Part shown: one piece after another, positions 56,936 through 64,000 of the stretch
Layout: each line of letters begins with the position of its first letter
Position numbering within the stretch: the first letter of the stretch is position 1
Sequence record: PQ433349.1
Length of the DNA stretch: 64,000 bases
Direction: 5' to 3' (one strand)
DNA from: Escherichia phage vB_Ec-G1
The notes under the pieces: generated by a model
What the model saw: the letters and a program-made list of their open reading frames with translations, nothing else
What the model was told of the DNA's origin: nothing
The model's database searches: none
Translations under genes and position numbers: made by a program

Positions 56936-57883
56936 CTACAAACTTTCAATAACCTGGCGTCGCAATTCGTTTGCATCTGCCAGATTGTAGTGTGTTCGAA
57001 CATGTTCAGCCAAGAACAAGCCACGATCTTCCCGATAGTTTGGATTGCGAAGAAGCTTAACAATTTCGTAATGCCATTCTGCTTTATTCTCTGCGTAAGC
57101 AACAGCACGAGCATCTACAGGGTTAAAATAAGGTAACACCTTAGAACAAACAATCGGAATACCTTTTGCCCCAGCTTCCAGGATTTTGAGATTACTTTTG
57201 CAATTATTAAAATCATTATCTACCAAAGGAGCTATAGCAATAGCATGACTTTCGTAAACATTCATGTAATTATCTAAATCTTTTACAGCAGCTTTATATT
57301 TGGCATTTGGTAAATTTCTGCGAATCTTAATCCACTCTTGTCCCGTGATGCTCTGCGATGCTTCATATCCCGCAATAGTAAGAAGTTCATCATCGAAAGT
57401 ATTAGAGACTAGTCGTAAATCGGGTTCGTGACTAGCACCGCCAGCCCATACAACAGGGGTACCGGATGAACGATCATTTGACAAAGTGAATTGTCCACTA
57501 TCAAAAGGAAGTGCATTTCGGATCACAACAACATTCCTATTTAAGTGACGGATCTTATATGCCAAGTATTCCGTAGTCACAATAACCACATCAGCAAGCT
57601 TAACCATAGCCACAATAGCATGAGTGTTTGACTCGTATAAACTTGCCAAATAATGCTCTGGATTAAGTTGGTAAAAATCATCTAAGTCTACAACAATCTT
57701 AACACCTTGGCGTTTCAAAGATAAAACGTATTCTGCACCTTTAGAGTGGATACGGTTAAACACAACAACATCTTTCTTAGGTTGAATATTATTGTTGTTA
57801 AATGGTATAACAATACGATGATAGTCACAACCGCTGTGAGGTTTTGCATCAATTTTTAGTTTAGACCATTTTTTATTTGACAT
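56936..57883 (-). CDS. glycosyltransferase-like protein (GT-B-like), paralog
   Basis: 315 aa; shares CD(F/Y)HR, VDLDD, P(L/V)VWAG, APL(I/V)DN.FNN.KSNLKILEAGAKG, VRTHY with neighbour. Confidence 0.55.
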   Translation of the reverse strand: MSNKKWSKLKIDAKPHSGCDYHRIVIPFNNNNIQPKKDVVVFNRIHSKGAEYVLSLKRQGVKIVVDLDDFYQLNPEHYLASLYESNTHAIVAMVKLADVVIVTTEYLAYKIRHLNRNVVVIRNALPFDSGQFTLSNDRSSGTPVVWAGGASHEPDLRLVSNTFDDELLTIAGYEASQSITGQEWIKIRRNLPNAKYKAAVKDLDNYMNVYESHAIAIAPLVDNDFNNCKSNLKILEAGAKGIPIVCSKVLPYFNPVDARAVAYAENKAEWHYEIVKLLRNPNYREDRGLFLAEHVRTHYNLADANELRRQVIESL

Positions 57884-58556
57884 GTGCTAGTGCCTCCTCA
57901 TAAGAAAGTCGGATTTTCCCATTTTTAATATCCTCTAAAGATGCTTTGTATTCTTCCCAGTTAATACCAATAGCAGCTTCTTTCTCTTCTTTTGTCAGAT
58001 TAGCAAAAGGCATAGGATTGTTTCCAAAAACATCGTCTGGGTGGATATAAGCCATGATACGAAGTGGACAAGGTGTTGCCTGAATACCATGATTCAAACC
58101 AGCAGCTTTCAAACGGTGTCCCCATTCAGCATCTTCAAAACCATAACCGTGAGTGTAAGGGCGGAAATAACCCATCTTCTCAACAACGGCACGAGAATAC
58201 ATTGCAAATTGACACATTGCAAGTTCCCAGAGAATAACTTCTCCTTTGCTTCCAACAACTTTATCTTTGAAATACTCCGGCATACCAAAGAAATCCCATC
58301 CTCCAGAAACAGCCTGATCTACAAAGTATGTTTCCCATCCTTCCATGACTGGGTAGCAATCATCGTCAAAAATAAACCAATAATCATAACCTTCTTCATA
58401 AAACTGGTGCATAAGTTCATTCCTGGCATAAGCTACACCTTTACGATCTGGATCGTTGAATACTCGAAAATCTGCACGTGGATCTGTTACAAGGTAGTCT
58501 TTAAGTGGACGGACGCCTACAGTGATAACACCCACTCCGATTTTAATATTTTCCAT
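57873..58556 (-). CDS. glycosyltransferase (GT-A-like, DxD motif)
   Basis: 227 aa; YWFIFDDDCYP. Confidence 0.55.
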   Translation of the reverse strand: MENIKIGVGVITVGVRPLKDYLVTDPRADFRVFNDPDRKGVAYARNELMHQFYEEGYDYWFIFDDDCYPVMEGWETYFVDQAVSGGWDFFGMPEYFKDKVVGSKGEVILWELAMCQFAMYSRAVVEKMGYFRPYTHGYGFEDAEWGHRLKAAGLNHGIQATPCPLRIMAYIHPDDVFGNNPMPFANLTKEEKEAAIGINWEEYKASLEDIKNGKIRLSYEEALAHVK

Positions 58557-58564
58557 TATCTCTC

Positions 58565-59128
58565 CTAAATAGTTTTACTGTGATCGTGACAGTGTAATAA
58601 ATGATGTATAGACCGTTGAGGATTTGTTTGACCTAATCTGTAAATGTGAAACAGATACATTCCCCGCATCAATCCTAACCTCTTTCCTTTTTCATGTAAA
58701 GTGCGAGAGAAAATTAAGTCGAATTGGATAGATTTTTCTTCGAAAGGAATTTCATTCCACAACGATTTTCTAAAAAGCAAAAAGAAACCTGCCAGAGGTG
58801 TTCCGAAAGGAACTTCTTCAACACTCACTTTATGATATTCTCTTGCAATCTTAGCATATTCTATATGGTTTAGAATATCTGGATCATCGTTAATTTGGTT
58901 AGAGAAAAGCTGATAACCACTACCTAACCTGTTACAAGTTGCACCTATTACATCAAAAGGTGGGTTTGAAATAACAAGCTCTTCAAGCATAGATGGTTGA
59001 TCAGGCAGGAGGAACATTGTATCGGTATCTCTTAAGCACACCCAACTATCATCTGGAAGAACGGCAATAGCTTCATTGATAGCCTTGCCGATATTTCCTG
59101 TCAGATAGGGAGTAATATAATAAATCAT
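58565..59128 (-). CDS. putative glycosyltransferase-like protein
   Basis: 187 aa; N-terminal YYITPY...LRDTDTMFL DxD-like pattern; weak assignment. Confidence 0.4.
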   Translation of the reverse strand: MIYYITPYLTGNIGKAINEAIAVLPDDSWVCLRDTDTMFLLPDQPSMLEELVISNPPFDVIGATCNRLGSGYQLFSNQINDDPDILNHIEYAKIAREYHKVSVEEVPFGTPLAGFFLLFRKSLWNEIPFEEKSIQFDLIFSRTLHEKGKRLGLMRGMYLFHIYRLGQTNPQRSIHHLLHCHDHSKTI

Positions 59129-59829: not shown

Positions 59830-60351
59830 TTAACTCCCCTTTGGTAGATAGAAACCATGCACTTTATCTCGATAAACAAGACGCATATCACGCTCCCAGT
59901 GTGTCCTTATATTCCGTTTCTTGAAGTATAGAGCACCTTTAGTAACATCTAAAACAGACCGCAATTCAGGAAAATGTTTCTCTAAATAAAGTAAACGCTC
60001 CGCTATTGCTTTTGCTTCCTGCCACTTATCTTTCTCTGTTACGTTAAAAGTTTTCGCATATGAGAATTGCCCTTTCTGGAACAAGACTCCTCTGACTGTG
60101 TTAGGAAAGTAGGCATCATTTCTTCTATTGATTACCACATTCCCAACGGCATTCATTCCTTTTTTACCCAGACCGCGACCTTCTGCGTAAATTGCACAAG
60201 CTAATAGAATTTTATCATTATATTGCTTTGTACATTTGTGAACTACTTTAGCGGTTTTTACGTTTGCAGCTTCGGCTTTCGCCACAACAGGTGTAAATGT
60301 AAAAGCAGTTAAGGATAGTAACGCAACTGTTACAAAGTTTTTTATCAGCAA
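59830..60351 (-). CDS. secreted cell-wall hydrolase (SleB-like), candidate endolysin
   Basis: 173 aa; N-terminal signal peptide-like FVTVALLSLTAFTFTPVVAKA; CAIYAEGRG...GNVVINR; TTG start after AAGGAGG. Confidence 0.65.
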   Translation of the reverse strand: MLIKNFVTVALLSLTAFTFTPVVAKAEAANVKTAKVVHKCTKQYNDKILLACAIYAEGRGLGKKGMNAVGNVVINRRNDAYFPNTVRGVLFQKGQFSYAKTFNVTEKDKWQEAKAIAERLLYLEKHFPELRSVLDVTKGALYFKKRNIRTHWERDMRLVYRDKVHGFYLPKGS

Positions 60352-60383: not shown

Positions 60384-60412
60384 AGTATAACACGATAGAG
60401 GCTTTATTGCAA
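60384..60412 (-). promoter_or_regulatory. sigma70-like promoter (minus strand) for hydrolase gene
   Basis: minus-strand TTGCAA-N17-TATACT. Confidence 0.55.
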
Positions 60413-60432
60413 GAGGGGGATTTCTCCCCCTC
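60413..60432 (-). terminator. GC hairpin downstream of TerD-like gene
   Basis: GAGGGGGA-TTTC-TCCCCCTC; no clear T-tract. Confidence 0.4.
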
Positions 60433-60450: not shown

Positions 60451-61053
60451 TTATGGACATTCATACCATTCTTTTTTACCACCGAAGGCCATCACCACAT
60501 CACAAATATCCAGACCAGCTTTGCCTACACCATATGCTTTCAGCTTCCATTCCCCATCTTCACGAACCAAGGAAGCCACGTGGCAGATTGTGTTGCCAGC
60601 TACTTCAGGAGCCAGGAAGTCAAAATCCAGAATTTCCACATTGCGCTCGGAGTCGAAGATTTTAAGCATACCTTCAGAAGCATGACCAAAACGTTTCAGA
60701 CCTGTATCATCATCAATGGTCAGAACAAAGGCAATCTCTTGTGCATCAGGGGAGATTTTAGCCAGAGTAATATCAATCTGCTCCATGCTGCCAGTTCCAT
60801 CACGAACATCGTCACCAGCGAAGGTAGAACGTTCAGGATCAAACTTGTTAGCATAGCAAACCAGATGACGTGCAGACAGCATTTCAGGATTGCCAGCGGC
60901 ATTGTGACGACAAACCAGTGCACTTACATCCAGATCCAGTTTAGAATCAGATTTCCAAGAGAATTCCAGGCGCAGTTCTTTCAGAGCCGGAGCAACTTTC
61001 TTCAGGGAAATTTTTTCGCTAGAGCCTTTTTTCAGGGAAATTTTATCAGTCAT
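60451..61053 (-). CDS. TerD-domain protein
   Basis: 200 aa; duplicated ISLKK N-terminus, LDLDVSALV, GDDVRDG, GEWK consistent with TerD family as recalled. Confidence 0.75.
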   Translation of the reverse strand: MTDKISLKKGSSEKISLKKVAPALKELRLEFSWKSDSKLDLDVSALVCRHNAAGNPEMLSARHLVCYANKFDPERSTFAGDDVRDGTGSMEQIDITLAKISPDAQEIAFVLTIDDDTGLKRFGHASEGMLKIFDSERNVEILDFDFLAPEVAGNTICHVASLVREDGEWKLKAYGVGKAGLDICDVVMAFGGKKEWYECP

Positions 61054-61068
61054 CTTTTGTCTCCTCTA

Positions 61069-61338
61069 TTATTTAAGTGTAATACCAGTTACAGTCAATT
61101 CTACTTCCAAAAGCTTAGATGTGTTTTGGATTGATACTAATTGTGCATGATGGTTTAGTTCTACAGCAGAATAATCATTTTCCCCATCGTCTACTTTTAA
61201 ATAAACAATGATTTCACTAAGGTCTAAACCATTTTCGTCAAATGCATTTTCATAGACGAAAGTATCTCCTACATCCAAATCTTTAATGGTAAGGCATCGT
61301 TTATTTACTTTTTGCTCATCAATTTCGAAGTTTAACAC
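61069..61338 (-). CDS. small hypothetical protein, paralog B
   Basis: 89 aa; aligns along its length with 62360-62638 product (shared LDVG.TF, VELTVTGITLK / VDLEVTNITLK). Confidence 0.5.
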   Translation of the reverse strand: MLNFEIDEQKVNKRCLTIKDLDVGDTFVYENAFDENGLDLSEIIVYLKVDDGENDYSAVELNHHAQLVSIQNTSKLLEVELTVTGITLK

Positions 61339-61567
61339 TTCTTCCTCCTAATGTTATCTCCGGTTTGTATATACGAAGAATTATAGCGTTTTCATTTTCT
61401 TTGTCAACCCATTCTTCATAATCAGGCCATACATGAATCTCTACTCTACTTACAATATCTTCCATTCGCACAGTCCCAATGAAATACTCTTTGAGACTGC
61501 GCATAATGAAAGCTTCTCTCTCACGCCAATAATTTTCTATGACTTGAGAGGCAAGCTCGTCGATCAT
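61319..61567 (-). CDS. hypothetical protein
   Basis: 82 aa. Confidence 0.45.
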   Translation of the reverse strand: MIDELASQVIENYWREREAFIMRSLKEYFIGTVRMEDIVSRVEIHVWPDYEEWVDKENENAIILRIYKPEITLGGRSVKLRN

Positions 61568-62358
61568 TTTTTAGCACCTACTTTAACAACCCACTCTCCG
61601 AACTCTTCAGATAAGAGTTTGTCATAAAGCTCTGAATCTGTCAAGTCTAAATCTTTAATACCAATAAAACCAACATTATCATAAGCATTTGCCAGTTCTT
61701 TCAGGAAGCCAAACTTCTCATTACCAACGCCAACCATGAACCAATAAATAGGTTTATTCTTATTCTCTTCGATAAGACGACGAACAGCACTAGGATCACC
61801 ATTCTCACCATCCGTCTGGAAGAATACAACACCAGGGGTAACGTCAGCACCTGGTTCAGATACAGCTACAACTTTTTCACGCTCTACAGACACTGTTTCA
61901 GTTTTACCAAGCAGACGATTAAAGAAGCCTTTCTTTGGAGCCTCCTCTTGTACCACTTGTTTAGTGGTAATATATTTAGTAACAGTGCCAAAATACTCAT
62001 CGTAGATATCCGCCATTACAGGGGCGTAATTTGTTCCACCTCCGATACGAACATTACGCATACATTTACCAACATAGTCATCGTAAACATCTGCTGTTGC
62101 TGGAGTAAGCTCTTGGGAACTCGTATTGAAGGCCCACATATCAATTTGTTGATTATCGTCGAACAGCATACCAAAAGGAAGCAGTTTACCTACAAAATCA
62201 CTCACTACCCCACTAGAATATAGACCATGCATACTACCAGAAATATCTAGAGCACATGCTACACGAAGAACAATCTTACCTTCATTCAGGTTCTTATTCT
62301 TTTTCAGAGAGAAAGCAAGGTTTTCTTGACGTTTTTTCAGGCTGATTTTCTCGGACAT
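61564..62358 (-). CDS. von Willebrand factor A (vWA) domain protein, TerY-like
   Basis: 264 aa; MIDAS motif DISGSM; N-terminus MSEKISLKK echoes TerD N-terminus. Confidence 0.7.
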   Translation of the reverse strand: MSEKISLKKRQENLAFSLKKNKNLNEGKIVLRVACALDISGSMHGLYSSGVVSDFVGKLLPFGMLFDDNQQIDMWAFNTSSQELTPATADVYDDYVGKCMRNVRIGGGTNYAPVMADIYDEYFGTVTKYITTKQVVQEEAPKKGFFNRLLGKTETVSVEREKVVAVSEPGADVTPGVVFFQTDGENGDPSAVRRLIEENKNKPIYWFMVGVGNEKFGFLKELANAYDNVGFIGIKDLDLTDSELYDKLLSEEFGEWVVKVGAKK

Positions 62359-62359
62359 A

Positions 62360-62638
62360 TTATTTCTCCTTCTTAAGTGTGATATTGGTAACTTCTAAAT
62401 CTACTTCCACCATATTTGTATCTGGTGGGATGCAATGAGTATAGCCTCGTTGTGCTAGTGATCCATTAATACAGATCGCACTGTTTGTGGAATTTTTAAT
62501 GAACACCAAGTTACGGTAGGTATCCAACCCTGCGTCTTCATAGGCATCATAATACATGAATGTGGCCCCTACGTCAAGATCTTCGAAAGCAATAGGTAAA
62601 TCCTGACTTTTTTCTTCTTGAATATTGAATCTAAACAC
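62360..62638 (-). CDS. small hypothetical protein, paralog A
   Basis: GTG start overlapping upstream stop after GAGGAGG; product VFRFNIQEEK... Confidence 0.5.
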   Translation of the reverse strand: MFRFNIQEEKSQDLPIAFEDLDVGATFMYYDAYEDAGLDTYRNLVFIKNSTNSAICINGSLAQRGYTHCIPPDTNMVEVDLEVTNITLKKEK

Positions 62639-63194
62639 GCATACCTCCTCTACCAATTTTGAAGCCCAAATCGTAAGCTTCCTTAGTGATCTTTTGTAAC
62701 TCACTTATAGGAAGTGTTACAAGAGGATCATCTTCTTCAATTTCCATCTTGTCATCTTCTGTTTCAATGAGAGTATTATGCACTTTGTGATAAGGGTTGT
62801 CAACACGTTTAAACTTATTCTTTTCTGTGCTGAAAAAACAGTCTGGATCTTCTTCACCATCACCCCAACCTTGGTTAGGATCTCCGTCAGATTGTTCTGT
62901 AGGGATTTCACCTGTAAAGTACTCTTCCAGCACCATAGCAATACCGTCCCTTGGATTTGAGGAATGCATTAAATCACAAACCTTACCCCAATCCATAGCC
63001 CATTCGAACCGTTCACGAATGCCATTTTCATCCTCCTTCCCAGAGAAAACACAACCATAACTATCATAGTTGCCATACATCTCTTCAATAACAACACCGT
63101 CCTTCAAAAGAAAGAGGTAGCAAGGTGATCCGTCGAAAGAAGTAGAAAGGGCAGCTTTGCCCGATTCTTTGCACAAAAAGCTAAAACAACCCAT
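62631..63194 (-). CDS. hypothetical acidic protein
   Basis: 187 aa. Confidence 0.5.
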   Translation of the reverse strand: MGCFSFLCKESGKAALSTSFDGSPCYLFLLKDGVVIEEMYGNYDSYGCVFSGKEDENGIRERFEWAMDWGKVCDLMHSSNPRDGIAMVLEEYFTGEIPTEQSDGDPNQGWGDGEEDPDCFFSTEKNKFKRVDNPYHKVHNTLIETEDDKMEIEEDDPLVTLPISELQKITKEAYDLGFKIGRGGMRV

Positions 63195-63592
63195 TACAAA
63201 CCCTCCTTCAGATTATCAAGAGCTACAGTGGTTTCACAAAATTCTCCATAAGCTTTATGATGTTCCAGAAAAGCTTCGGGTCCACCCCAGTCATTATCTT
63301 GTGTATTCCAGCCATCAATAAAAGCATCTTCAATGATTGTGATCAGTTCCTGTCGAGTCAACGTAATGGTATCAGGTTTCTGCGTAGTTTCCACACGGAA
63401 CCCTGGTTCTTCATAAAAACCTTTAGTTACAATGGATTCTAACTCTTCTGCATCACAGAGGAAGTAGCCACAAAGATAACACCAACCGTCATCATCTTTC
63501 ATTACTTCATAAACTTCACCACTTGCTAACTTGGTGAAAAGAGTAGGGTCTGTTACTGTAAGTTTTAAAAGAATACCTGTTGGATTATACAT
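63194..63592 (-). CDS. hypothetical protein
   Basis: 132 aa. Confidence 0.5.
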   Translation of the reverse strand: MYNPTGILLKLTVTDPTLFTKLASGEVYEVMKDDDGWCYLCGYFLCDAEELESIVTKGFYEEPGFRVETTQKPDTITLTRQELITIIEDAFIDGWNTQDNDWGGPEAFLEHHKAYGEFCETTVALDNLKEGL

Positions 63593-63758: not shown

Positions 63759-63955
63759 TACTCCTCCTCCTCATTGAAGTCAATATCTGCAAGGAGTTCG
63801 AATTTACGGAAGTTACGACAACCTTCATAAATATAACAATCACGACAAACTGCTAGAACACTTGGGGGATATATGCCTCCCATCGGTGCGAATCGTTTTT
63901 CGTCATCATAACGGACACCAATGTCTTCATCAATTATATAGATACGGATTCTCAT
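63758..63955 (-). CDS. hypothetical protein
   Basis: 65 aa; CRDCYIYEGC. Confidence 0.45.
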   Translation of the reverse strand: MRIRIYIIDEDIGVRYDDEKRFAPMGGIYPPSVLAVCRDCYIYEGCRNFRKFELLADIDFNEEEE

Positions 63956-64000
63956 TTACCAAGCCCTCGTTTCACAGCAGCTACCATCCCGTCTTCCAGA
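63956..64000 (-). CDS. hypothetical protein, partial (only last 14 codons in window)
   Basis: open minus-strand frame ending TAA at 63956-63958 overlapping downstream ATG. Confidence 0.3.
   Translation of the reverse strand, partial: SGRRDGSCCETRAW

What the first reader, a model, noticed from the sequence alone, without database searches (positions are those of the whole stretch)
60451..62638. Ter-like module in a phage: TerD and vWA genes each preceded by a paralogous small gene
The leftward block contains a clear TerD-domain protein (60451-61053) and a vWA/MIDAS protein (61564-62358) whose N-termini both start with the same M..KISLKK motif. Each is preceded by a ~90 aa protein, and the two small proteins are paralogs aligned over their length. 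So the layout looks like a duplicated two-gene unit (small protein plus ISLKK-headed effector) with different effector domains. TerD and vWA (TerY) proteins belong to bacterial Ter stress-response clusters; their role in a virulent phage is unknown and could be host takeover or counter-defence.
Basis: partly seen in the sequence, partly recalled or inferred. Interest (0 to 1): 0.75.

Follow-up and report, generated by a model that had tools for sequence, protein, structure and literature searches.

The report
Phage Ter-like genes with small partners
A virulent E. coli phage carries the tail end of a known bacterial-type "Ter" stress-gene cluster (a TerD protein and a TerF-type vWA protein), and each of the two genes follows a member of a small, previously undescribed phage protein family that travels with them in many related phages.

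Summary
60451-61053(-) is a TerD protein, 61564-62358(-) a vWA protein of the TerF C-terminal type (not TerY), and the ~90-aa proteins at 61069-61338 and 62360-62638 are full-length paralogs (34% identity, E=2e-14).

The "duplicated two-gene unit" reading does not hold:
- TerD and vWA are not homologous.
- The shared M..KISLKK head is generic to both families. It is the canonical TerD N-terminus, and a pre-domain element of all 60 vWA-TerF-like homologs inspected that retain their N-terminus, including bacterial ones and TerD-vWA fusions.
- Sister phages have only one small gene.

The window is a Phapecoctavirus (99.6% identical to phage ZCKP1). The block is the distal end of a roughly 9-kb Ter-like cluster that runs off the window (TelA, SprT-like, TerC, Macro, PRTase, HAD). 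Ter genes in virulent phages are already published, with function unknown.

The new part is the small family. It consists of acidic, standalone 87-93-aa proteins with a loosely SH3-like predicted fold. In every context recovered it sits next to vWA and/or TerD, in two positional subtypes. I infer adaptor subunits of a membrane-associated Ter complex, but this is untested. Interest is modest.

The parts
60451..61053 (-). TerD-domain protein, 200 aa. It belongs to a phage subfamily with a shortened acidic loop and an extra C-terminal FGGxxxWY tail.
   Evidence: Pfam TerD 3.2e-28. Aligns over its full length to 2KXT and 3IBZ. 81% identical to the phi92-like TerD. Loop and tail differences are seen in the alignment of 9 TerDs.
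60997..61044 (-). TerD N-terminal KISLKKGSSEKISLKK element (residues 4-19), net basic.
   Evidence: Aligns with VSLSKGG--NVSLSK of KpTerD. L7, K9, L17 and K19 are invariant in 9 TerDs. The first 25 residues carry net charge +5.
61069..61338 (-). Small acidic protein 1 (89 aa, GTG start), the 'between vWA and TerD' subtype of the small family.
   Evidence: phrog_11278 7e-45. Paralog of small2 at E=2e-14. Clusters with PsgM04F small1 and P0077. pI 4.26.
61319..61567 (-). 82-aa gene of unknown function. It is specific to the Phapecoctavirus/PsgM04F lineage and overlaps both neighbours.
   Evidence: phrog_22387 8e-58. 60% identical in PsgM04F. Absent in phi92-like and 05F01 layouts.
61380..61407 (-). 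Perfect sigma-70 consensus TTGACA-N16-TATAAT, 42 nt upstream of the small1 start codon.
   Evidence: 12/12 match. It is the only perfect match in the 64-kb window, with 0.07 expected by chance. A perfect match also lies at the equivalent site of PsgM04F, ZCKP1 and EF1-1.
61564..62358 (-). Standalone vWA protein of the TerF C-terminal type (264 aa) with an intact MIDAS motif.
   Evidence: PF10138 1.6e-37. The Pfam domain begins at residue 31. 62 homologs were found, mostly on phage-size contigs.
62299..62349 (-). Pre-vWA KISLKKRQENLAFSLKK element (residues 4-20), net basic, outside the Pfam vWA model.
   Evidence: Conserved in the 60 inspected homologs that retain their N-terminus, including Neobacillus P0060. 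Present as repeats in the TerD-vWA linker of fusions P0066 and P0069. Pfam coordinates.
62360..62638 (-). Small acidic protein 2 (92 aa, GTG start), the 'upstream-of-vWA' subtype. Its KKEK tail codons carry the Shine-Dalgarno sequence of vWA.
60413..60432 (-). GC-rich hairpin GAGGGGGA-gaaa-TCCCCCTC just after the TerD stop. A promoter-like site and RBS for the SleB-type endolysin follow.
   Evidence: Read directly. There is no T-run, so the terminator scan did not call it.
62631..63194 (-). Conserved 187-aa acidic protein of unknown function directly upstream of small2, overlapping it by 8 nt. Whether it belongs to the module is uncertain.
   Evidence: phrog_14928 5e-125. Same position in ZCKP1, KMB37, PsgM04F and L016/17. 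No Pfam, NCBIfam or PADLOC hit.
63952..64000 (-). Last 15 codons of a TelA homolog, cut by the window end. This links the block to the rest of the Ter-like cluster.
   Evidence: The translation LEDGMVAAVKRGLGK* is identical to the C-terminus of ZCKP1 gp151. gp151 matches Pfam TelA at 3.2e-33.

Best explanation
The block is the promoter-distal end of a phage-borne Ter-like gene cluster in a Phapecoctavirus.

Shown:
- It encodes a TerD beta-sandwich protein, a standalone TerF-type vWA protein with an intact MIDAS metal site, and two ancient paralogs of a small acidic protein family found here only as standalone proteins.
- The cluster continues beyond the window with TelA, SprT-like, TerC, Macro, a ComF-like PRTase and a HAD hydrolase.
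- In every genome context recovered, a member of the small family lies immediately next to vWA and/or TerD. There are two sequence subtypes, one always just upstream of vWA and one always between vWA and TerD. This phage lineage keeps both; relatives keep one.
- The shared ISLKK head is the generic basic N-terminal element of both protein families, not a mark of duplication.

Inferred:
- The genes are expressed from host-type promoters early in infection.
- TerC and TelA sit at the membrane, and TerD and vWA assemble on them as metal-dependent scaffold or sensor subunits.
- The acidic small proteins act as dedicated adaptors or chaperones, one per soluble subunit, possibly by docking on the basic hSLxK heads.
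- The net effect would be to remodel or protect the infected cell's envelope, for example against superinfecting phages, colicins or ionic stress. This is what Iyer et al. proposed for phage Ter systems.
For: Identity:
- Pfam TerD and vWA-TerF-like hits are far above their cut-offs, and TerD aligns to solved TerD structures.
- The window is 99.6% identical to ZCKP1.

Cluster:
- TelA, SprT-like, TerC, Macro, PRTase_3 and HAD are found in ZCKP1 just beyond the window.
- The TelA C-terminus is at 63952-64000.

Small family:
- Paralogy at E=2e-14.
- An exhaustive profile search of 1.84 billion proteins finds only standalone 87-93-aa proteins, plus two truncated fragments, as genuine members.
- Adjacency to vWA/TerD in the window, PsgM04F, phi92-like, 05F01, L010, L011, L012/13, L014, L015 and L016/17.
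- Positional subtypes match the neighbour-joining clades.
- Tight coupling: a 1-nt gap between small2 and vWA with the SD inside the small2 tail, and a 15-nt gap between small1 and TerD.
- All members are acidic (pI 4.3-5.4), while both large proteins have +5 heads.
- The confident AF2 model (pLDDT 85) resembles SH3-like adaptor barrels.

Generic head motif.

Promoter: a unique perfect sigma-70 consensus, also perfect at the equivalent site in three relatives including the 74%-identical PsgM04F.

Published model for phage Ter systems: PMC7824862.
Against: - No experiment or complex prediction links the small proteins physically to TerD or vWA. Adjacency could reflect shared regulation only.
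- The small family is absent from three other phage lineages with the same vWA-TerD-endolysin synteny (L006, L007, L018), from L019 and from the bacterial locus L008. It is therefore not essential to the pair.
- The phage TerD lacks most of the acidic Ca-binding run of KpTerD, so 'metal-dependent' is uncertain for it.
- The biological role of any Ter system, bacterial or phage, is unresolved. No PADLOC defence model matches.
- The NJ tree rests on about 90 columns and has no support values.
Confidence: 0.6

Rival explanations
1. A two-gene unit (small protein plus ISLKK-headed effector) was duplicated as a whole, and the effector domain was later swapped, giving two parallel small-plus-effector cassettes.
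For: In this genome each large gene is directly preceded by a paralogous small gene, and both large proteins begin M..KISLKK. Both small genes have a GGAGG-GTG start.
Against: - TerD and vWA share no homology beyond the head.
- The head is generic to each family in bacteria and in fusions.
- An 82-aa gene interrupts the repeat.
- Relatives have one small gene with both effectors.
- DNA flanks of the two small genes show no duplicated segment beyond the coding region.
Confidence: 0.07
2. The small genes are ordinary lineage-specific phage ORFs that are merely syntenic with vWA and TerD. They have no functional tie to the Ter proteins.
For: - They are absent in L006, L007 and L018, in L019, and in the bacterial locus L008.
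- There is no annotated function (phrog_11278 'unknown').
- Many unrelated small phage proteins share the fold.
Against: - Adjacency persists down to 23-30% identity across at least 8 lineages, while other neighbouring small ORFs turn over.
- Two sequence subtypes track two positions.
- Translational coupling is conserved in three genera.
Confidence: 0.18
3. The phage Ter proteins serve counter-defence or host takeover rather than protection or exclusion. For example they might act as decoys for a host Ter complex. Or, together with the PRTase, HAD and Macro enzymes, they might make or destroy a nucleotide-derived signal used by host immunity.
For: - The cluster includes Macro, PRTase_3 and HAD enzymes, which act on nucleotide or ADP-ribose-type compounds.
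- Acidic small proteins are a common form of phage inhibitor.
- Bacterial ter clusters inhibit phages (cited in PMC8386662 and PMC9796965).
Against: - These phages are propagated on E. coli K-12 MG1655 and DH5alpha, which to my knowledge lack a ter operon. I did not check this.
- The phage encodes the membrane components TerC and TelA itself, which fits building a complex rather than mimicking one subunit.
- There is no match to known defence or anti-defence models.
Confidence: 0.15

Closest known systems
Phage-borne Ter systems (Iyer, Anantharaman, Krishnan, Burroughs, Aravind 2021, PMC7824862; phiKp34, PMC8386662; PhiPsa374, PMC9796965)
   Same: The gene set is the same: TerC, TerD, TerF-type vWA and TelA, and in the fuller versions PRTase and HAD, in virulent phages. 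The question of function is equally open. The superinfection-exclusion or stress-tolerance hypothesis applies equally.
   Different: Those descriptions, in the passages I read, do not mention a small protein family coupled to vWA and TerD. This is a ~150-kb Stephanstirmvirinae phage rather than a jumbo phage. The cluster also carries Macro and SprT-like genes.
Bacterial terZABCDEF / TerF (TerD domain fused to a C-terminal vWA, PF02342 + PF10138)
   Same: The domains are the same, and the hSLxK element precedes the vWA domain as in TerF-type fusions. TerD aligns with KpTerD 2KXT over its whole length.
   Different: - Here TerD and vWA are separate genes with small genes interposed.
- No TerB, TerZ, TerA or TerE was found among the Pfam-scanned genes from the SleB-type hydrolase through gp161.
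- The TerD acidic Ca-binding loop is 2 residues shorter and lacks the DGDDE run.
- A C-terminal FGGxxxWY tail has been added.
TerY / TerY-P triad (vWA + PP2C phosphatase + Ser/Thr kinase)
   Same: A vWA/MIDAS protein in a Ter context.
   Different: The vWA family is different (PF10138, not the TerY type). There is no adjacent kinase or PP2C, and no PADLOC hit.
SH3-like small beta-barrel adaptors (FeoA, DtxR/IdeR C-terminal domain, HspQ, ribosomal L2 SH3 domain, EF-P domain I)
   Different: - There is no sequence similarity.
- An extra helix is present at residues 30-36.
- The proteins are strongly acidic, so RNA binding as in L2 or KOW domains is unlikely.

Membership tests
TerD family (PF02342) | Full-length match to the TerD profile above the curated cut-off | tested here: met
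   98.9 bits against a cut-off of 25.3, covering residues 5-179 and profile positions 3-177 of 187.
TerD family (PF02342) | Collinear alignment with a solved TerD structure, including the N-terminal hSLxKG..hSLxK strands | tested here: met
   2KXT E=1.5e-15 and 3IBZ E=2.9e-14, with residues 5-183 aligned.
TerD family (PF02342) | Acidic Ca2+-binding loop GDNxTGEGDGDDE, as in metal-binding TerD paralogs | tested here: not met
   The phage has GDDVRDGTGSME, which is 2 residues shorter and lacks the DGDDE run. The same holds in 8 phage TerDs, whereas the bacterial L008 TerD has the longer loop GDNRTGKGEGHDE. This resembles the 'non-metal-binding paralog' class. Actual binding was not tested.
vWA-TerF-like (PF10138) | Profile match above the curated cut-off | tested here: met
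   130.1 bits against a cut-off of 29.4. The domain spans residues 31-260.
vWA-TerF-like (PF10138) | MIDAS motif DxSxS...T...D | tested here: met
   DISGS (res 38-42), GGGTNY and QTDGE are read in the translation. They are conserved in homologs.
TerF proper | TerD domain fused N-terminally to the vWA domain | tested here: not met
   The protein is standalone, 264 aa, with no TerD hit in it. Fusions such as P0066-P0069 are only 25-31% identical.
TerY-P triad | TerY-type vWA with an adjacent PP2C phosphatase and a Ser/Thr kinase | tested here: not met
   No PADLOC hit for any of the 9 proteins tested. The neighbours are small ORFs, TelA and an endolysin.
Ter 'hub' cluster (TerC + TerD + vWA + TelA, with or without PRTase/HAD biosynthetic genes) | Co-located TerC, TelA, TerD and vWA, with PRTase and HAD enzymes | tested here: met
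   TerD and vWA lie in the window and the TelA C-terminus is at 63952-64000. TelA, TerC, PRTase_3 and HAD (weak HAD hit: 19.7 bits, below the 26.4 cut-off) were scored in the 99.6%-identical ZCKP1 just beyond the window. Most of the cluster is outside the window.
Canonical terZABCDEF operon | Presence of TerB and multiple TerD paralogs (TerZ/A/D/E) | tested here: not met
   There is one TerD. No TerB or other TerD hit was found among the Pfam-scanned genes from the SleB-type hydrolase through gp161.
SH3-like small beta-barrel fold (small proteins) | Significant structural match to SH3-like barrels | tested here: inconclusive
   The small genes are paralogous. The large genes are not (different Pfam families). 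Relatives carry one small gene.

The most novel reading that the evidence does not exclude
The small acidic barrel proteins are a phage-specific third component of the Ter machinery. On this reading there are two specialised adaptor or chaperone paralogs. Each docks on the basic hSLxK head of its cognate partner (small2 on vWA, small1 on TerD). Each controls that partner's assembly, or the engagement of the vWA MIDAS site, on the TerC/TelA membrane complex. This would give the first defined protein-protein wiring inside any Ter system, and a handle on what the conserved hSLxK element does.
Probability: 0.25. Interest if true: 0.55.

Novelty: new variant of a known kind. Interest (0 to 1): 0.35.

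Why it matters
Ter clusters are widespread in pathogens and phages. They are linked to tellurite, colicin and phage resistance and to virulence, yet after three decades their mechanism is unknown. A compact phage version with separately encoded TerD and vWA subunits is genetically tractable in E. coli. Each subunit is paired with a dedicated small partner, and the block has its own strong host-type promoter. That offers a simple system for asking who binds whom and what the conserved hSLxK head does. On its own, though, the finding mostly re-identifies genes that are already annotated in sister genomes and discussed in the literature. Only the small-family linkage is new, and its function is inferred.

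Tried and rejected
1. Giant-protein hits of the small-family profile. These were He_PIG, DUF11, HYR and even ankyrin repeat proteins, with whole-protein E down to 4e-26. I rejected them. Per-repeat scores are only 3-17 bits and the families are heterogeneous, so they are summed-repeat artefacts.
2. First AF2 run with a 7-sequence alignment. It gave pLDDT 47 and was unusable. A rerun with 18 sequences succeeded.
3. Locus L009 from IMG/VR. It is a spurious YEAFGLD match inside a high-GC unrelated protein, so I discarded it.
4. The 82-aa protein as a paralog of the upstream 187-aa protein. The comparison gave no similarity (E=0.054).
5. Homology of the small family to the small ORFs at equivalent positions in L006, L007 and L018. 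hhalign probability was below 1%.
6. A second TerD in phi92-like phages. The extra 200-aa gene there has no TerD signal.
7. PADLOC and NCBIfam scans gave nothing useful.
8. The Anantharaman 2012 Ter paper is not held in the library. The afdb50 fold library was unavailable.
P0089 in IMG/VR found nothing.
Full report
**Observation**

On the minus strand the region holds, in transcription order:
- a 187-aa gene (62631-63194)
- small2 (62360-62638, 92 aa)
- vWA (61564-62358, 264 aa)
- an 82-aa gene (61319-61567)
- small1 (61069-61338, 89 aa)
- TerD (60451-61053, 200 aa)
- after a 99-nt spacer, a SleB-type cell-wall hydrolase (59830-60351)

Pfam confirms TerD (E=3.2e-28) and vWA-TerF-like PF10138 (E=1.6e-37), and also Hydrolase_2 for the endolysin. 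TerD aligns end to end with the solved TerD structures 2KXT and 3IBZ. The vWA carries DxSxS, T and D MIDAS residues. The two small proteins are 34% identical over their full length (E=2e-14) and share phrog_11278.

Three corrections apply. The vWA is the TerF C-terminal type, not TerY. Both small genes start at GTG after a GGAGG site.

**What the genome is**

The block is 99.6% identical to Klebsiella phage ZCKP1 and about 99% identical to phAPEC8-like coliphages (genus Phapecoctavirus, subfamily Stephanstirmvirinae). Sister records already annotate these genes as 'tellurium resistance protein', 'general stress protein 16U', 'VWA domain-containing protein' or 'vWA found in TerF C-terminus'.

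**Wider context**

The window ends inside the cluster. Its last 49 nt encode the C-terminal 15 residues of a TelA homolog, identical to ZCKP1 gp151. In ZCKP1 the same strand continues with the following genes:
- TelA (E=3e-33)
- a SprT-like protein
- three unknowns
- TerC (E=3e-40)
- a Macro-domain protein
- a ComF-like PRTase_3 (E=2e-41)
- a HAD hydrolase (weak hit)

The finding is therefore the distal 2.2 kb of a Ter-like cluster that spans roughly 9 kb in ZCKP1. This is the 'hub plus nucleoside-biosynthesis' type that Iyer et al. describe in jumbo and 'certain other related smaller tailed phages' (PMC7824862). Ter genes are also reported for phiKp34 (PMC8386662) and PhiPsa374 (PMC9796965). 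In all of these the function is stated to be unknown. No paper in the library links Phapecoctavirus with TerD.

**The ISLKK head**

In TerD, KISLKKGSSEKISLKK aligns with VSLSKGG--NVSLSK of KpTerD. Its L/K positions are invariant in nine TerDs, including a bacterial one.

In the vWA family, all 60 inspected homologs that retain their N-terminus begin with the same pattern, hSLxKRxExLxhSLxK. This includes Neobacillus P0060 (IDLTKK..VLEKK).

In TerD-vWA fusions the pattern occurs as repeats in the interdomain linker: ISLSKQRLISLEKT..INLAKQ in P0069, and VNLQKQRLVKLEKS..VSLAKQARISLEKA in P0066.

The element lies outside the Pfam vWA model, which starts at residue 31. It is therefore a real, conserved and generic feature of both families. 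It is not evidence that the two phage genes descend from one duplicated unit. Apart from it, TerD and vWA share nothing.

**Comparative layouts**

| Lineage | Gene order |
|---|---|
| Klebsiella phage 05F01 | small-vWA-TerD-hydrolase |
| phi92-like Justusliebigvirus | small-vWA-TerD-(200-aa unknown)-hydrolase; this TerD is 81% identical to the window's |
| Phapecoctavirus, PsgM04F-like phages | small2-vWA-82aa-small1-TerD-hydrolase |
| L010, L011, L012/13 (uncultured; small-family members 23-30% identical to small2) | vWA-small-TerD |
| L015 | vWA-small-(ORF cut by contig end) |
| L014 | small-TerD; contig starts at the small gene |
| L006, L007, L018 (phage) | vWA-TerD-hydrolase synteny kept, no detectable family member |
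| Neobacillus locus L008 and L019 | neighbouring TerD, vWA and TerC (plus TelA in L019), no family member |

A neighbour-joining tree separates two types. The 'upstream-of-vWA' type includes window small2, phi92-like, 05F01 and Psg small2, and ends in K-x-E-K. The 'between' type includes window small1, Psg small1, P0077 and the distant members.

The KKEK tail is encoded by AAGAAGGAGAAATAA, which is the Shine-Dalgarno sequence of vWA. Part of the subtype signature is therefore imposed by translational coupling.

The simplest reading is an old duplication of the small gene alone, with both copies retained only in the phAPEC8/PsgM04F lineage. The tree is short (about 90 columns) and has no support values, so the order of events is inference.

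**What the small proteins are**

An exhaustive HMMER search of 1.84 billion representatives returned, as genuine members, only standalone 87-93-aa proteins and two truncated fragments. The strong-looking hits to giant repeat proteins are artefacts of summing many 3-17-bit repeats.

All family members are acidic (pI 4.3-5.4). The first 25 residues of both TerD and vWA carry +5 net charge in otherwise acidic proteins. This argues against nucleic-acid binding. It is compatible with docking of the small proteins on the basic heads, but does not demonstrate it.

**Expression signals**

The only perfect TTGACA-N16-TATAAT in the 64-kb window (0.07 expected by chance) lies at 61407-61380, inside the 82-aa gene and 42 nt upstream of small1. 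A perfect match also lies at the equivalent site in the 74%-identical PsgM04F. phi92-like phages have TTGACT-17-TAAAAT in the vWA-TerD spacer. TerD, with small1 where present, therefore probably has its own host-type promoter.

A GC hairpin at 60432-60413 follows the TerD stop. It abuts a promoter-like site for the endolysin gene.

**Mechanism**

Shown:
- domain identities
- cluster membership
- paralogy of the small genes
- conserved adjacency and coupling
- charge pattern
- promoter consensus

Inferred from the published Ter model and from the anatomy:
- TerC and TelA are at the membrane.
- TerD and vWA act as soluble scaffold or sensor subunits.
- The small acidic barrels act as cognate adaptors.
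- The role is in protecting or sealing the infected cell, for example by superinfection exclusion or stress tolerance.

The phage TerD has a shortened loop lacking the DGDDE run of the KpTerD Ca site, so it may be a non-metal-binding paralog.

These are scored in the rivals section.

**Verdict**

The TerD and vWA part is already known and partly annotated. The 'duplicated unit' interpretation is replaced by 'one ancient small-gene duplication inside a larger, known type of phage Ter cluster'.

The modest novelty is the small SH3-like family as a recurrent, position-specific companion of phage vWA-TerF and TerD genes. I did not find this described in the held literature, and PHROGs lists the family as unknown.

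I set interest at 0.35.

Noticed in passing
window 63952-64000 (-) and beyond; L002 15455-22034: The window cuts a TelA gene after its last 15 codons. In the 99.6%-identical ZCKP1 the strand continues with SprT-like, TerC, Macro, PRTase_3 and HAD genes, so most of the Ter-like cluster lies outside the window.
   Followed up: yes
window 61380-61407 (-): This is the only perfect sigma-70 consensus (TTGACA-N16-TATAAT) in the 64-kb window. It is embedded in the 82-aa coding sequence, and a perfect match lies at the equivalent site in a 74%-identical relative. It is probably a strong early promoter for small1-TerD.
   Followed up: partly
window 63194-63592 (-): A 132-aa ORF here corresponds to a 67-aa ORF in ZCKP1 and EF1-1 (a 195-nt length difference), while PsgM04F and L016/17 have the 132-aa form. 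This is a variable spot between TelA and the vWA block.
   Followed up: no
window 62360-62374 (-): The C-terminal KKEK tail of small2 is encoded by AAGAAGGAGAAATAA, which is the Shine-Dalgarno sequence of the vWA gene 1 nt downstream. A protein-family 'signature' is here shaped by a translation signal.
   Followed up: partly
window 60413-60432 (-) and 60384-60412 (-): An 8-bp GC-rich hairpin follows the TerD stop without a T-run. It directly abuts a promoter-like TTGCAA-17-TATACT (with a TG extension) for the SleB-type endolysin.
   Followed up: no
window 59830-60351 (-); L005, L006, L007, L010-L013, L018: TerD is followed by a SleB/Hydrolase_2 endolysin gene, directly or within a few genes, in every phage lineage examined. 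I could not tell whether this is functional linkage or plain synteny.
   Followed up: no
(GenBank records): Genomes about 99% identical to this coliphage block are deposited as Klebsiella (ZCKP1), Acinetobacter (ABPW7) and Campylobacter (B15) phages. A 74%-identical relative is labelled a Pseudomonas phage (PsgM04F). Some of these host labels look doubtful.
   Followed up: no
L001 6770-7039 (EF1-1 gp198): The small1 ortholog is annotated 'RNA ligase' in phage EF1-1 with no supporting note. Nothing here supports that name, so it is probably a mis-annotation.
   Followed up: partly
window 56936-59128 (-): The window holds three consecutive glycosyltransferase-like ORFs, and the relatives annotate four glycosyltransferases in a row. 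They lie between the endolysin region and the primase/helicase gene, and their target (host surface or phage DNA) is unknown.
   Followed up: no
vWA-TerF-like family generally (P0008-P0069): A conserved ~30-residue basic hSLxK...hSLxK element precedes the vWA domain in standalone proteins and is repeated in the TerD-vWA linker of fusions. It is not covered by Pfam PF10138 and mimics the first two strands of TerD. Its role is unexplained.
   Followed up: partly
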